From Escherichia coli (GTDB lineage: Bacteria; Pseudomonadota; Gammaproteobacteria; Enterobacterales; Enterobacteriaceae), in assembly GCF_003334405.1 (NCBI RefSeq), contig NZ_QOWM01000002.1: a stretch of DNA of 64,000 nucleotides; one strand, written 5' to 3'. Below are positions 45,001-64,000 of the stretch, one piece after another. Made by a program: the position numbers. The number at the start of each line of letters is the position of its first letter. Position 1 is the stretch's first letter.

Positions 45001-48000
45001 AAAAGCATTCTGGCGAATGTCGAGCAGATTAAAACGATTGCCGACTTCACCACCAACGATCGCTTTATGTCGGCGTTACCGCTGTTTCACTCCTTTGGGC
45101 TGACGGTAGGCCTGTTTACGCCACTGCTTACAGGTGCAGAAGTGTTCCTTTATCCAAGCCCGCTGCATTACCGCATTGTGCCGGAGTTGGTGTATGACCG
45201 CAGTTGCACCGTGTTGTTCGGCACCTCGACTTTCCTCGGTCACTACGCGCGTTTCGCCAACCCGTATGACTTCTATCGTCTACGCTATGTGGTGGCAGGC
45301 GCAGAAAAATTACAAGAAAGTACCAAACAGCTTTGGCAGGATAAATTTGGCCTGCGCATCCTTGAAGGCTACGGCGTGACCGAATGCGCGCCTGTCGTTT
45401 CTATCAACGTACCGATGGCGGCGAAACCCGGTACGGTAGGGCGTATTCTACCAGGAATGGATGCGCGCCTGTTGTCGGTCCCTGGTATCGAAGAGGGCGG
45501 ACGCCTGCAACTGAAAGGGCCGAACATAATGAACGGCTATCTGCGGGTGGAGAAGCCAGGTGTACTGGAAGTGCCCACCGCCGAGAATGTTCGCGGCGAA
45601 ATGGAGCGCGGCTGGTATGACACTGGCGATATTGTGCGTTTTGACGAGCAGGGCTTTGTGCAGATTCAGGGCCGCGCAAAACGCTTTGCCAAAATTGCAG
45701 GCGAAATGGTGTCGCTGGAAATGGTGGAACAACTGGCACTTGGTGTTTCGCCAGATAAAGTCCATGCCACTGCGATTAAGAGCGATGCCAGCAAAGGCGA
45801 GGCACTGGTGCTTTTCACCACAGATAACGAACTGACGCGCGATAAGTTGCAACAGTATGCCCGCGAGCACGGCGTGCCGGAGCTTGCTGTACCGCGCGAT
45901 ATTCGCTATCTGAAACAGATGCCATTACTTGGCAGCGGCAAACCTGACTTTGTCACGTTGAAAAGCTGGGTAGACGAAGCGGAACAACACGATGAGTGAG
46001 TCAGTGCACACTAACACTTCGTTGTGGTCGAAGGGGATGAAAGCGGTTATCGTGGCGCAGTTTCTCTCTGCGTTTGGCGATAATGCCCTACTGTTTGCCA
46101 CTCTGGCGTTACTGAAAGCGCAGTTCTATCCGGAGTGGAGCCAGCCCATCCTGCAAATGGTGTTTGTAGGTGCTTACATTCTTTTTGCGCCGTTTGTCGG
46201 GCAGGTGGCGGATAGCTTCGCCAAAGGCCGGGGGATGATGTTTGCCAACGGCCTGAAGCTGCTGGGCGCAGCCAGTATCTGCTTTGGTATCAATCCGTTT
46301 CTCGGCTATACGCTGGTGGGTGTTGGTGCTGCAGCCTATTCACCGGCGAAATACGGTATTCTCGGCGAATTAACCACGGGTAGTAAGTTAGTGAAAGCTA
46401 ACGGTTTAATGGAAGCTTCTACCATAGCGGCGATTTTGCTCGGTTCCGTAGCCGGTGGTGTGCTGGCTGACTGGCATGTCCTCGTCGCCCTGGCCGCATG
46501 CGCACTGGCCTACGGTGGTGCGGTCGTTGCCAATATCTACATTCCCAAACTGGCGGCGGCGCGTCCGGGGCAGTCCTGGAATCTCATCAACATGACCCGC
46601 AGTTTCCTGAATGCCTGCACCTCGCTATGGCGCAATGGTGAAACGCGTTTTTCGCTGGTGGGCACCAGTTTATTCTGGGGAGCGGGTGTCACGCTGCGTT
46701 TCCTGTTGGTGCTGTGGGTACCGGTGGCGCTGGGCATTACCGATAACGCTACGCCCACCTATCTCAACGCGATGGTAGCGATTGGTATCGTGGTTGGCGC
46801 AGGTGCGGCAGCGAAGTTAGTTACGCTGGAAACCGTGTCACGCTGTATGCCAGCCGGGATTTTGATTGGCGTGGTGGTACTGATTTTTTCCCTGCAACAC
46901 GAGCTGCTGCCAGCCTATGCCTTGTTGATGCTGATTGGCGTGATGGGGGGCTTTTTTGTCGTTCCGCTCAATGCGTTGCTACAGGAGCGGGGTAAAAAAA
47001 GCGTCGGGGCGGGGAATGCGATTGCAGTACAAAACCTTGGCGAAAACAGCGCCATGTTGTTGATGCTGGGCATTTACTCGCTGGCGGTAATGATAGGCAT
47101 CCCGGTCGTGCCCATTGGCATTGGCTTCGGTGCGCTGTTTGCGCTGGCAATAACGGCGCTGTGGATCTGGCAGCGCCGTCATTAATATTTAACGCCGGTT
47201 TTAACCGGCGTTAATCTTATGGTGCCGGATAAGTATAAACCTGATGCACCGCTTCAATTTCAGCTAATACGTCTTCGCTTAACTCCAGATGCAAACTTTC
47301 GATGTTAGTTTTCAGCTGATCCATCGTGGTTGCGCCCAGCAGAGTGCTGGCAACAAACGGTTGACGGCGTACAAACGCGAGCGCCATCTGAGCAGGGTCC
47401 AGGCCATGACGTCTGGCGATATCAACATACGCCGCGACGGCTTTTTGCGTTTGCTCACCGCTATAGCGGGTGAACCGACTAAAGAGCGTATTACGTGCGC
47501 CAGCGGGTTTTGCACCATTGAGATATTTCCCGGTCAGCGTGCCGAAACCCAGGCACGAATAGGCCAGCAGTTCGACCCCTTCATACTGGCTGACTTCTGC
47601 CAGACCTACTTCAAAACTGCGGTTTAACAGACTGTAAGGGTTCTGAATGGTGACAATACGCGGCAGATCGTGTTTGTCCGCCAGATGCAGGTAGCGCATT
47701 ACGCCAAATGCAGTTTCGTTCGACACGCCGATATAACGAATTTTTCCCGCGCGTTGGTACTCTGCCAGTGCGTCCAGCGTATCCAGCAGCGAAACCGCAG
47801 GCGCAGAATCCGTCCAGCTATAACCGAGTTTGCCGAAGCAGTTGGTCGGGCGCTGCGGCCAGTGCACCTGATAAAGATCGAGGTAATCAGTCTGTAGGCG
47901 CTTGAGGCTGTCATGCAGCGCTTCGCGGATATTCTTCCGATCCAGCGCCTGATCCGGGCGGATGCCCTTGTCATTATTGCGCGACGGTCCGCTCACTTTG

Positions 48001-63000: not shown

Positions 63001-64000
63001 ATTTTGCCCTCCATTACGTTGAAAGAGGTGCTGGCCTATCGCGACGCCTTAAAATCAGGGGCTCGACCAGAGTTTATGGTTATCGGCAACATGACCGAGG
63101 CCCAGGCAACAACGCTGGCACGCGATGTGCAAAAACAGTTGGGCGCTGATGGTTCAGAGTGGTGTCGAAACAAAGATGTAGTGGTCGATAAAAAACAATC
63201 CGTCATCTTTGAAAAAGCCGGTAACAGCACCGACTCCGCACTGGCAGCGGTATTTGTACCGACTGGCTACGATGAATACACCAGCTCAGCCTATAGCTCT
63301 CTGTTGGGGCAGATCGTACAGCCGTGGTTCTACAATCAGTTGCGTACCGAAGAACAATTGGGCTATGCCGTGTTTGCGTTTCCAATGAGCGTGGGGCGTC
63401 AGTGGGGCATGGGCTTCCTTTTGCAAAGCAATGATAAACAGCCTTCATTCTTGTGGGAGCGTTACAAGGCGTTTTTCCCAACCGCAGAGGCAAAATTGCG
63501 AGCGATGAAGCCAGATGAGTTTGCGCAAATCCAGCAGGCGGTAATTACCCAGATGCTGCAGGCACCGCAAACGCTCGGCGAAGAAGCATCGAAGTTAAGT
63601 AAAGATTTCGATCGCGGCAATATGCGCTTCGATTCGCGTGATAAAATCGTGGCCCAGATAAAACTGCTGACGCCGCAAAAACTTGCTGATTTCTTCCATC
63701 AGGCGGTGGTCGAGCCGCAAGGCATGGCTATTCTGTCGCAGATTTCCGGCAGCCAGAACGGGAAAGCCGAATATGTACACCCTGAAGGCTGGAAAGTGTG
63801 GGAGAACGTCAGCGCGTTGCAGCAAACAATGCCCCTGATGAGTGAAAAGAATGAGTGATGTCGCCGAGACACTAGATCCTTTGCGCTTGCCCTTACAGGG
63901 TGAGCGCCTGATTGAAGCCTCTGCCGGCACAGGCAAAACCTTTACGATTGCGGCGCTCTATTTGCGCCTGTTACTTGGACTAGGCGGTTCCGCCGCCTTT

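What the first reader, a model, noticed from the sequence alone, without database searches (positions are those of the whole stretch)
45992..63858. Overlapping or tightly coupled core gene pairs (aas/lplT, ptrA/recB, ppdA-ppdB-ygdB-ppdC)
The lplT start overlaps the aas stop by 8 nt and the recB ATG overlaps the ptrA stop by 8 nt. The pseudopilin genes ppdA, ppdB, ygdB and ppdC overlap successively, which implies translational coupling. This is expected for conserved operons and is listed for completeness.
Basis: seen in the sequence. Interest (0 to 1): 0.1.

Follow-up and report, generated by a model that had tools for sequence, protein, structure and literature searches.

The report
Known overlapping gene junctions in E. 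coli
Five short stop/start overlaps between neighbouring genes in three well-known E. coli operons are real and conserved in related bacteria, but they are ordinary, already annotated features and nothing new.

Summary
Window 43001-64000 is 99.986% identical to E. coli K-12 MG1655. All five overlaps are in the sequence and match the RefSeq annotation:
- aas/lplT: 8 nt (ATGAGTGA, 45992-45999)
- ppdA/ppdB: 10 nt (56138-56147)
- ppdB/ygdB: 4 nt (GTGA, 56698-56701)
- ygdB/ppdC: 16 nt (57090-57105)
- ptrA/recB: 8 nt (ATGAGTGA, 63851-63858)

No alternative start codon removes an overlap. The recB start is confirmed by published N-terminomics. The ppd starts are fixed by their prepilin leader motifs. 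The lplT start is favoured by a conserved ATG, an always-open frame and mostly third-position variation.

The tight geometry persists in up to 13 Enterobacterales genomes, shifting only between -8 and -4 in most, while true intergenic spacers nearby range from 15 to 204 nt.

Translational coupling is the likely function but is inferred, not shown. lplT and recB have no Shine-Dalgarno signal above background, so they probably depend most on the upstream ribosome. ppdB and ppdC carry strong ones. The recB start is also listed with INRI-seq evidence, an in vitro method that uses isolated gene fragments, so coupling there is not obligatory.

Verdict: already known, low interest.

The parts
43840..45999 (+). 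aas, the bifunctional acyl-ACP-phospholipid acyltransferase / acyl-ACP synthetase; upstream gene of pair 1
   Evidence: ORF with no internal stops. RefSeq annotation. NCBIfam equivalog NF005959 scores 1527 bits against a cutoff of 886.
45992..47185 (+). lplT, the lysophospholipid transporter; downstream gene of pair 1
   Evidence: NF008397 scores 574 bits against a cutoff of 297. The ATG 15 codons upstream of Met16 is kept in all 11 sequences, and codons 4-15 vary most at third positions.
45992..45999 (+). aas/lplT overlap, 8 nt, ATGAGTGA (lplT ATG, aas TGA)
   Evidence: The overlap is -8 in Escherichia, Citrobacter, Enterobacter and Superficieibacter, and -4 (ATGA) in Yersinia and Acerihabitans. 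The 60-mer around it is present in 5422 of 5426 E. coli genomes. There is no SD above background (-3.5 kcal/mol).
55514..55541 (+). Hairpin followed by a T-run after thyA; a likely intrinsic terminator that separates thyA from the ppd operon
   Evidence: Read directly from the sequence GCCGACGC-CAGTGT-GCGTCGG-TTTTTTT. It was not listed by the consensus scan.
55677..56147 (+). ppdA, a prepilin peptidase-dependent minor pilin-like gene and first gene of the ppd operon
   Evidence: NF007800 scores 249.6 bits against 158, and TIGR02532 24.3 against 16.3. The leader is [11 protein letters not shown].
56138..56701 (+). ppdB
   Evidence: NF007848 scores 326 bits against 120, and TIGR02532 29.5 bits. 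The leader is [12 protein letters not shown]. In both Citrobacter species and Enterobacter Bisph1 no upstream in-frame start exists.
56138..56147 (+). ppdA/ppdB overlap, 10 nt, ATGCCTGTAA
   Evidence: The overlap is -10 in six related taxa and -7 in two Enterobacter species. A strong SD (GCAAGGAGA, -8.5 kcal/mol) lies inside the end of ppdA.
56698..57105 (+). ygdB (DUF2509), with a GTG start
   Evidence: NF008569 scores 256 bits against 159, with no TIGR02532 match. The frame opens only 18 nt upstream and contains no other start.
56698..56701 (+). ppdB/ygdB overlap, 4 nt, GTGA
   Evidence: NTGA is kept in all 9 loci where tblastn found both genes, and at the ORF level in Y. artesiana, Pectobacterium and Acerihabitans. 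Photorhabdus has a 5-nt gap instead.
57090..57413 (+). ppdC
   Evidence: NF007660 scores 217 bits against 86, and TIGR02532 24.5 bits. The leader is [15 protein letters not shown].
57090..57105 (+). ygdB/ppdC overlap, 16 nt, ATGTCAGCTTCCCTGA
   Evidence: The overlap is exactly 16 nt in 7 of 7 close taxa although its sequence changes. A strong SD (-8.0 kcal/mol) is present.
   Evidence: A 12-nt gap is kept in 5 of 9 related loci (15 nt in E. albertii). SD energy is -6.6 kcal/mol.
60920..60955 (+). Published Hfq-binding 36-mer in the ptrA 5' UTR; its deletion doubles RecB translational efficiency
   Evidence: Exact match to the sequence given in PMC12342828, located in the window.
60970..63858 (+). 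ptrA, pitrilysin / protease III; upstream gene of pair 3
   Evidence: NF011681 scores 1852 bits against 765.
63851..64000 (+). recB, first 50 codons (the gene runs off the window)
   Evidence: The N-terminal peptide SDVAETLDPLRLPLQGER and Ribo-RET/INRI evidence for this ATG are in PMC13245402 Table S1, row 645.
63851..63858 (+). ptrA/recB overlap, 8 nt, ATGAGTGA
   Evidence: The overlap is -8 in Escherichia and Citrobacter, -4 in seven other genomes, -20 in one and +15 in one. The 60-mer is present in 5426 of 5426 E. coli genomes. There is no SD above background (-2.5 kcal/mol), and the region is predicted to be unstructured.
   Evidence: The gap is 12 nt in 11 of 12 related loci.
54693..54698 (+). 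lgt/thyA 6-nt spacer (TGAGGAACCATG; the SD overlaps the lgt stop)
   Evidence: The gap is 6 nt in 10 of 13 related loci, ATGA in two and 36 nt in one.

Best explanation
These are the natural gene junctions of three known E. coli transcription units: aas-lplT, ppdA-ppdB-ygdB-ppdC(-recC) and ptrA-recB(-recD).

Inferred: the overlaps let the ribosome that is finishing the upstream gene promote initiation on the downstream gene. It could do this by re-initiating after termination, or by melting local RNA structure around the start.

Likely dependence differs by junction.
- lplT and recB have no Shine-Dalgarno signal above background. They probably depend most on the upstream ribosome and are made as a small fraction of Aas and PtrA.
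- ygdB has a GTG start in the classic GTGA arrangement and only a weak SD, so it is likely re-initiated.
- ppdB and ppdC carry strong SDs inside the upstream gene and can probably also initiate on their own.

For Aas/LplT (a 1:1 complex) and the four pilin-like proteins, coupling would help balanced synthesis. For PtrA/RecB, which are functionally unrelated, it would simply tie RecB output to translation of the operon's first gene.
For: - Geometry and annotation.
- True starts, recB: N-terminal peptide plus Ribo-RET/INRI evidence.
- True starts, PpdA/B/C: a prepilin G|F/Y-x-L-x-E motif lies 6-10 residues from the annotated Met, with TIGR02532 hits.
- True starts, ppdB and ppdC: the annotated ATG is the first possible in-frame start in several genera.
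- True starts, lplT: the ATG 15 codons upstream of Met16 is conserved with an always-open frame, and codons 4-15 vary at 5, 3 and 7 columns for codon positions 1, 2 and 3.
- Conservation of spacing in the closest taxa: -8 for aas/lplT (7 taxa); -8 or -4 for ptrA/recB with one -20; -10 or -7, -4 and -16 for the ppd junctions. Changes in remoter taxa are mostly between the enriched classes -8 and -4.
- Contrast: non-operonic spacers vary (recC/ptrA 15-179 nt, ptsP/lgt 75-204 nt).
- SD energies: lplT -3.5 and recB -2.5 kcal/mol, no better than 24% and 47% of random positions. ppdB is -8.5 and ppdC -8.0, in the top 1-2%.
- Literature on spacing: -4, -1 and -8 spacings are the enriched classes, and coupling is most efficient between -4 and +3 nt. 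In a separate study, 13 of 14 tested overlapping pairs were strictly coupled (PMC6728339).
- Literature on ptrA/recB: the recB RBS lies inside ptrA, and deleting an Hfq site at the ptrA RBS, 2.9 kb upstream, doubles RecB proteins per mRNA (PMC12342828).
- Literature on Aas/LplT: they form a 1:1 complex (PMC11416262).
Against: - No direct coupling experiment exists for any of the five junctions in what I could read.
- The recB start is listed with INRI-seq evidence. That method uses in vitro transcripts carrying only 30 nt upstream of each start, so de novo initiation without ptrA translation is possible.
- Overlaps of 10 and 16 nt are in the range where coupling efficiency falls off.
- The strong SDs of ppdB and ppdC allow independent initiation.
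- RNA-structure predictions are unremarkable. The lplT start is somewhat paired (86th percentile) and the recB start is open (4th percentile).
- PtrA and RecB have no functional link, so there is no stoichiometry argument for that pair.
Confidence: 0.75

Rival explanations
1. The overlaps are neutral by-products of a compact genome. Stop and start codons drift into one another easily, especially into NTGA and NTGNNTGA. Each downstream gene is initiated independently, and the overlap has no regulatory role.
For: - The overlap length is not fixed over longer distances: aas/lplT is -8 or -4, and ptrA/recB is -8, -4, -20 or +15. The ppd junctions become gaps in Photorhabdus and partly in Acerihabitans.
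- The recB start has INRI-seq (isolated fragment, in vitro) evidence.
- ppdB and ppdC have strong SDs of their own.
- PtrA and RecB are functionally unrelated.
Against: - Spacing at these junctions is far more constant than at true intergenic regions in the same loci. It stays constant even where the ppd proteins have diverged to about 50% identity.
- lplT and recB lack an SD above background.
- A cis element at the ptrA RBS changes RecB translational efficiency.
- 13 of 14 overlapping pairs tested elsewhere were strictly coupled.
Confidence: 0.2
2. One or more overlaps are annotation artefacts. The true start of the downstream gene would lie further downstream (for example lplT Met16), so the genes do not really overlap.
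For: - An in-frame ATG at lplT codon 16 is conserved in all 11 sequences compared and has an SD-like GAAGGGG next to it.
- The NCBIfam LplT profile aligns only from residue 12.
- There are no N-terminal proteomic data for LplT, PpdB, YgdB or PpdC.
Against: - The SD-like motif at Met16 has 0-nt spacing, which is too close to function.
- The ATG 15 codons upstream is kept in all 11 sequences with the frame always open, and variation in codons 4-15 is mostly at third positions.
- The recB start is confirmed by an N-terminal peptide.
- Later starts in ppdB, ppdC or ygdB would delete the prepilin leader or the hydrophobic N-terminal segment.
- The only other in-frame starts near ppdB, ppdC and recB lie upstream and would lengthen the overlaps, not remove them.
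Confidence: 0.03
3. The -8 overlaps are sites of programmed +1 frameshifting that produce fusion proteins, for example Aas-LplT, echoing the fused LplT-Aas proteins of other bacteria.
For: - lplT lies in the +1 frame of aas, and its frame is open for 18 nt upstream of the ATG.
- Fused LplT-Aas proteins exist elsewhere (NF006386 and NF005291; PMC11416262).
Against: - No slippery or stop-plus-SD frameshift signal is visible in the last codons of aas.
- The relative frame is not conserved: Yersinia and Acerihabitans have a -4 overlap, which puts lplT in the other frame.
- Natural fusions have the order LplT-Aas, the opposite of this gene order.
- PtrA is described as periplasmic, so a PtrA-RecB fusion makes no sense.
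Confidence: 0.01

Closest known systems
E. coli K-12 aas-lplT (b2836-b2835, formerly ygeD) bicistronic operon
   Same: The window sequence is 99.986% identical in this part. Gene limits and the 8-nt ATGAGTGA overlap are identical. Both proteins score above the NCBIfam equivalog cutoffs. The products form a 1:1 complex (PMC11416262).
   Different: Nothing differs. The window comes from a K-12-like strain rather than MG1655 itself, because it carries an ETT2 segment that K-12 lacks.
E. coli K-12 ptrA-recB-recD operon (b2821-b2819)
   Same: The ptrA stop / recB start overlap is identical. The literature already states that the recB ribosome-binding site lies inside ptrA and suggests coupling (PMC12342828). 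The published Hfq site is present at 60920-60955.
   Different: The window ends 150 nt into recB, so the recB/recD 1-nt overlap seen in K-12 lies outside it.
ppdA-ppdB-ygdB-ppdC of E. coli, equivalent to comNOPQ of Haemophilus influenzae (Sxy/CRP-S competence regulon, minor pilin-like genes upstream of recC)
   Same: Gene order, position upstream of recC and protein families all match (PMC12616744). The N-terminal prepilin cleavage/methylation motif is present in PpdA, PpdB and PpdC.
   Different: YgdB has no detectable prepilin motif. I found no CRP-S-like site in the thyA-ppdA spacer within 2 mismatches of a consensus I recalled from memory. I did not examine Pasteurellaceae loci.
Classical translationally coupled overlapping pairs (trpE-trpD, trpB-trpA, galT-galK; the -4/-1/-8 spacing classes)
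   Same: These are co-directional genes with the stop and start codons overlapping or a few nt apart. Three of the five junctions fall in the enriched -4 and -8 classes.
   Different: Coupling has been shown experimentally for the classical pairs. Here it is only inferred. Two junctions (-10 and -16) fall outside the enriched classes and outside the most efficient range.

Membership tests
Spatially coupled (overlapping, co-directional) gene pairs | Adjacent genes on the same strand, with the downstream start codon at or before the upstream stop codon | tested here: met
   All five junctions qualify, with overlaps of 8, 10, 4, 16 and 8 nt. The limits are identical in RefSeq.
Spatially coupled (overlapping, co-directional) gene pairs | Spacing belongs to the enriched classes -4, -1 or -8 (NTGA, TGATG/TAATG, NTGNNTGA) | tested here: met
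   Met for aas/lplT (-8), ppdB/ygdB (-4) and ptrA/recB (-8) (classes from PMC12548453).
Spatially coupled (overlapping, co-directional) gene pairs | The same enriched-class criterion applied to ppdA/ppdB and ygdB/ppdC | tested here: not met
   These overlaps are -10 and -16 nt. They are conserved as -10/-7 and -16 in close relatives but are not in the enriched classes.
Spatially coupled (overlapping, co-directional) gene pairs | Junction geometry conserved in orthologous loci of other genera | tested here: met
   13 Enterobacterales loci anchored on thyA were compared. True intergenic spacers in the same loci vary from 15 to 204 nt.
Translationally coupled gene pair (functional definition) | Downstream translation depends on translation of the upstream gene up to its stop codon | not testable with these tools
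   The only evidence is indirect and concerns ptrA/recB: deleting the Hfq site at the ptrA RBS doubles RecB translational efficiency (PMC12342828). Against strict dependence, INRI-seq evidence is listed for the recB start, from a method using isolated fragments.
Translationally coupled gene pair (functional definition) | The annotated downstream start codon is the one actually used | tested here: met
   - recB: N-terminal peptide SDVAETLDPLRLPLQGER plus Ribo-RET/INRI evidence (PMC13245402 Table S1).
- ppdB and ppdC: prepilin motif position and first-possible-start status in other genera.
- lplT: conserved upstream ATG, open frame and third-position-biased variation.
- ygdB: inferred only, as the sole start in an 18-nt open upstream frame.
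aas-lplT lysophospholipid remodelling operon | Both proteins score above the curated equivalog cutoffs, and the genes are adjacent and co-directional | tested here: met
   NF005959 scores 1527 bits against 886, and NF008397 574 against 297. Adjacency is shown.
ptrA-recB-recD operon | A pitrilysin gene immediately upstream of, and overlapping, recB | tested here: met
   NF011681 scores 1852 bits against 765. The recB N-terminus and the junction are identical to K-12. recD lies outside the window.
Type IV pilin-like (prepilin peptidase-dependent) minor pilin operon ppdAB-ygdB-ppdC / comNOPQ | An N-terminal prepilin cleavage/methylation motif (TIGR02532) in each product | tested here: met
   PpdA scores 24.3, PpdB 29.5 and PpdC 24.5 bits, all above the 16.3-bit cutoff.
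Type IV pilin-like (prepilin peptidase-dependent) minor pilin operon ppdAB-ygdB-ppdC / comNOPQ | The same motif in YgdB | tested here: not met
   YgdB matches only the DUF2509 equivalog NF008569. Its N-terminus (M/V)[12 protein letters not shown] lacks Glu at +5.
Type IV pilin-like (prepilin peptidase-dependent) minor pilin operon ppdAB-ygdB-ppdC / comNOPQ | A Sxy-dependent CRP-S site in the promoter region | tested here: inconclusive
   No match to TGCGA-N6-TCGCA (a consensus recalled from memory) within 2 mismatches lies in 55494-55676. The literature states the operon is Sxy-regulated (PMC12616744).
   The only Gsp hit is PpdB against GspJ (TIGR01711), at 20.8 bits against a cutoff of 64.85.

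The most novel reading that the evidence does not exclude
The two -8 junctions that lack a Shine-Dalgarno signal above background (both ATGAGTGA) may be obligatory termination-reinitiation sites. LplT and RecB would then be made only as a fixed small fraction of Aas and PtrA. In particular, the published Hfq control of RecB copy number would act on ptrA initiation and reach recB solely through this 8-nt overlap. RecBCD dosage would then be set by translation of an unrelated periplasmic protease gene.
Probability: 0.3. Interest if true: 0.25.

Novelty: already known. Interest (0 to 1): 0.05.

Why it matters
It matters little for discovery. These junctions are in the K-12 annotation, and the ptrA/recB arrangement is already discussed in the literature.

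The practical value is modest.
- Anyone deleting or tagging aas, ptrA or a ppd gene must keep the last codons of the upstream gene, or risk a polar loss of lplT, recB or the next pilin gene.
- The contrast between SD-poor junctions (lplT, recB) and SD-rich ones (ppdB, ppdC) gives a small, clean set of natural test cases for how much coupling depends on an SD.
- The ptrA/recB junction is the obvious place to test how Hfq control at the ptrA RBS is passed on to RecB.

Tried and rejected
1. Alternative starts. I listed every in-frame ATG/GTG/TTG around each downstream start in the window and in 13 related loci.
 - lplT Met16 is the only conserved downstream alternative. I rejected it on SD spacing and on the conserved upstream ATG with third-position-biased variation.
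 - The recB GTG at -9 would lengthen the overlap and is contradicted by the N-terminal peptide.

2. Shared octamer. Both -8 junctions read ATGAGTGA. I judged this chance. The two free positions give 1 in 16, other genera have ATGCGTGA, ATGCCTAA and ATGAATGA, and the octamer occurs three more times in the window.

3. Frameshift fusion Aas-LplT. Rejected because the relative frame is not conserved, no slippery signal is visible, and natural fusions have the opposite order.

4. RNA structure masking the downstream starts. Predicted pairing is within background: lplT is at the 86th percentile and recB at the 4th. This gives no support either way.

5. Ribosome-profiling check.
 - The Li et al. 2014 synthesis-rate paper was not held under the id I recalled.
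 - The INRI-seq supplements held list only alternative starts, not lplT or the ppd genes.
 - The Ribo-RET preprint has no supplements held.
 - Only recB could be checked.

6. CRP-S site upstream of ppdA. None was found with a consensus recalled from memory.

7. Promoter and terminator scan. Counts were at chance level across 45000-64000, and nothing convincing lies at any junction.
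Full report
**What the window is.** Window 43001-64000 aligns without gaps to E. coli K-12 MG1655 (reverse strand of about 2,955,854-2,976,853), with 3 mismatches in 21,000 nt (99.986%). A 19-kb query covering the finding matches all 5426 complete E. coli genomes, 5420 of them over at least 80% of its length. The genes are aas, lplT, tas, ygdR, ygdQ, mutH, ygdT, rppH, ptsP, lgt, thyA, ppdA, ppdB, ygdB, ppdC, recC, ptrA and recB. RefSeq annotates the same set in strain FORC_081 and in K-12.

**Checking the observation.** Reading the sequence directly gives five overlaps.

| Junction | Upstream gene | Downstream gene | Overlap |
|---|---|---|---|
| aas/lplT | 43840-45999 | 45992-47185 | 8 nt, ATGAGTGA |
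| ppdA/ppdB | 55677-56147 | 56138-56701 | 10 nt, ATGCCTGTAA |
| ppdB/ygdB | 56138-56701 | 56698-57105 | 4 nt, GTGA (GTG start) |
| ygdB/ppdC | 56698-57105 | 57090-57413 | 16 nt, ATGTCAGCTTCCCTGA |
| ptrA/recB | 60970-63858 | 63851 onward | 8 nt, ATGAGTGA |

All ORFs are free of internal stops. All limits equal the K-12 annotation, and all junction sequences are identical to K-12.

**Is it more than chance?** The local density is not remarkable. Five of 15 co-directional neighbour pairs overlap. At a typical rate of about 15% (PMC6728339) this has P = 0.06, and pairs within one operon are not independent.

What is non-random is conservation. I fetched 80 loci anchored on thyA from one genome per species. 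Thirteen Enterobacterales loci keep the synteny.
- aas/lplT is -8 in Escherichia albertii, two Citrobacter species, three Enterobacter species and Superficieibacter. It is -4 (ATGA) in two Yersinia species and Acerihabitans.
- ptrA/recB is -8 in Escherichia and Citrobacter, -4 in seven other genomes, -20 in one, and +15 in one where the TTG start is uncertain.
- ppdA/ppdB is -10 in six taxa and -7 in two.
- ppdB/ygdB is NTGA in all nine loci where both genes were found by tblastn.
- ygdB/ppdC is exactly 16 nt in seven of seven close taxa, even though the overlapping sequence itself changes.

An ORF-level look at the remoter genera adds more. NTGA is kept at ppdB/ygdB in Y. artesiana, Pectobacterium and Acerihabitans, while Photorhabdus has a 5-nt gap. 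The other ppd junctions there are mostly overlaps or short gaps, although Photorhabdus has a 42-nt ppdA/ppdB gap and Acerihabitans a 124-nt gap before ppdC.

By contrast, real intergenic spacers in the same loci vary widely: recC/ptrA 15-179 nt and ptsP/lgt 75-204 nt. The ppd junction geometry holds even though the four ppd proteins have fallen to about 50% identity in Enterobacter, where their neighbours remain at 78-95%.

Within E. coli, the 60-mers around the two -8 junctions are present in 5422 and 5426 of 5426 genomes. They are at least 99% identical in 4907 and 5217 of them. The ppd cluster is present in all 5426.

- *recB.* A published N-terminomics table lists the peptide SDVAETLDPLRLPLQGER (residues 2-19) for the annotated ATG. 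It also lists Ribo-RET and INRI-seq evidence, and shows exactly the window's sequence context (PMC13245402 Table S1, row 645). The only other nearby in-frame start is a GTG 9 nt upstream, which would lengthen the overlap.
- *ppdB and ppdC.* The annotated ATGs place the prepilin motif G|F-S-L-x-E 7 and 10 residues from the Met, and TIGR02532 scores above its cutoff. Later starts would delete the motif. The other in-frame starts lie upstream, and several genera have none, so this ATG is the first possible start there.
- *ygdB.* The GTG is the only start in a frame that opens 18 nt upstream.
- *lplT.* Met16 is a conserved in-frame alternative that would remove the overlap. I reject it for three reasons. 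Its SD-like GAAGGGG sits directly against the ATG with 0-nt spacing. The ATG 15 codons upstream is kept in all 11 sequences with the frame always open. Variation in codons 4-15 is 5, 3 and 7 columns at codon positions 1, 2 and 3, a modest third-position bias as expected for coding sequence. There are no proteomic data for LplT, so this start is the least secure of the five.

**What the genes are.**
- Aas and LplT score far above their NCBIfam equivalog cutoffs. The literature reports that they form a 1:1 membrane complex that re-acylates lysophospholipids (PMC11416262). In other bacteria the two are one polypeptide in the order LplT-Aas, which is the reverse of the E. coli gene order. LplT matches profile positions 3-405 and Aas positions 420-1140 of NF006386.
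- PtrA is pitrilysin, described as a periplasmic protease unrelated to RecBCD. The literature regards its position inside the rec cluster as an insertion and notes that the recB ribosome-binding site lies within ptrA (PMC12342828).
- PpdA, PpdB and PpdC are type IV pilin-like proteins. YgdB is DUF2509 with no detectable prepilin motif. The operon is the counterpart of Haemophilus comNOPQ, lies upstream of recC in both families and is reported as Sxy-regulated (PMC12616744). None of them reaches a type II secretion pseudopilin model, so 'pseudopilin' is loose wording.

**How it most likely works.** Overlapping or closely spaced stop and start codons are the standard setting for translational coupling.
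- The enriched spacings are -4, -1 and -8, and efficiency is best from -4 to +3, falling with longer overlaps (PMC12548453).
- 13 of 14 natural overlapping pairs tested were strictly coupled (PMC6728339).

I computed anti-SD duplex energies for the 20 nt before each start and compared them with 1500 random positions.

| Start | Energy (kcal/mol) | Share of random positions at least as good |
|---|---|---|
| lplT | -3.5 | 24% |
| recB | -2.5 | 47% |
| ygdB (GTG start) | -4.1 | 18% |
| ppdB | -8.5 | about 1% |
| ppdC | -8.0 | about 1% |

My reading, which is inference, follows from this table. lplT, recB and ygdB rely mainly on ribosomes arriving from the upstream gene. ppdB and ppdC can also initiate de novo, with upstream translation helping mostly by keeping the site open.

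Predicted local structure gives no strong signal. The lplT start is moderately paired (86th percentile) and the recB start is open and A-rich (4th percentile).

Indirect experimental support exists only for ptrA/recB. Deleting a 36-nt Hfq site just upstream of the ptrA start, which I located at window 60920-60955, raises RecB proteins per mRNA from 7.9 to 16.3. That is easiest to explain if ptrA translation feeds recB initiation 2.9 kb downstream.

Against obligatory coupling, INRI-seq evidence is listed for the recB start. INRI-seq uses in vitro transcripts with only 30 nt of upstream sequence, so de novo initiation is possible on a naked fragment.

**Rivals.**
- *Neutral overlap without function* remains possible (about 0.2). 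Over longer evolutionary distances the overlap length changes class.
- *Mis-annotation* is very unlikely (0.03), with lplT the only open case.
- *A frameshift fusion* is effectively excluded. The relative frame differs between genera (-8 against -4), and natural fusions have the opposite domain order.

**Comparison with what is known, and verdict.** Everything here is already in the K-12 annotation and the literature. The junctions are members of the ordinary class of spatially coupled gene pairs in known operons. Functional coupling, the one defining feature of a 'translationally coupled pair', cannot be tested with these tools. Novelty: already known. Interest: 0.05.

The most novel reading not excluded is that the SD-poor -8 junctions are obligatory re-initiation sites, and that Hfq control of RecB dosage is transmitted through ptrA translation. 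I put that at about 0.3 probability and of modest interest.

Noticed in passing
window 15291-23494: This 8204-bp stretch is absent from K-12 MG1655, which carries IS2H at that point. In strain FORC_081 the corresponding, nearly identical stretch is annotated as ETT2-type type III secretion genes (EscR/S/T/U, PrgH/EprH, SctI, EscJ), several of them frameshifted. The window therefore comes from a K-12-like strain that retains the ETT2 segment K-12 lost.
   Followed up: partly
window 43469-43550 and 43665-43752 (+): Two OmrA-B family sRNA genes (OmrB and OmrA by K-12 position) lie just upstream of aas, scoring 86 and 97 bits in Rfam. A tRNA at 13925-13995 corresponds to glyU by K-12 mapping.
   Followed up: no
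window 55677-57413, with loci L003-L017: The four ppd/ygdB proteins diverge much faster than their neighbours. Against Citrobacter they are 66-77% identical, compared with 89-98% for lgt, thyA, recC and ptrA. Against Enterobacter the figures are 47-55% compared with 77-95%. The junction overlaps nevertheless stay fixed at -10/-7, -4 and -16.
   Followed up: partly
window 43840-47185: LplT and Aas each match one half of the 1140-aa fused 'acyl-ACP-phospholipid O-acyltransferase' profiles NF006386 and NF005291. The fused order is LplT-Aas, the reverse of the E. coli gene order aas-lplT.
   Followed up: no
window 55657-55679: ppdA, the first gene of the ppd operon, has no Shine-Dalgarno signal above background (-1.7 kcal/mol; 63% of random positions are at least as good), whereas the internal genes ppdB and ppdC have strong ones.
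   Followed up: no
window 63838-63858: The octamer ATGAGTGA occurs twice, 13 nt apart, at the end of ptrA (63838 and 63851). The second copy is the ptrA/recB overlap. The same octamer forms the aas/lplT overlap at 45992. I judged this coincidental.
   Followed up: yes
window 9490-9493 (- strand): xdhB/xdhC overlap by 4 nt (ATGA). This is another overlapping pair in the window, outside the finding's range. K-12 also annotates an 8-nt yqeI/yqeJ overlap, but the window sequence differs slightly there and I did not map it.
   Followed up: partly
window 39898-39911: lysR and ygeA are convergent genes that overlap by 14 nt at their 3' ends in the K-12 annotation. The sequence is identical in the window.
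   Followed up: no
window 47153-47179 (+): A 10-bp GC-rich hairpin lies inside the last codons of lplT, in the short convergent gap before tas. It may be the operon's terminator. The consensus scan as a whole was at chance level.
   Followed up: no
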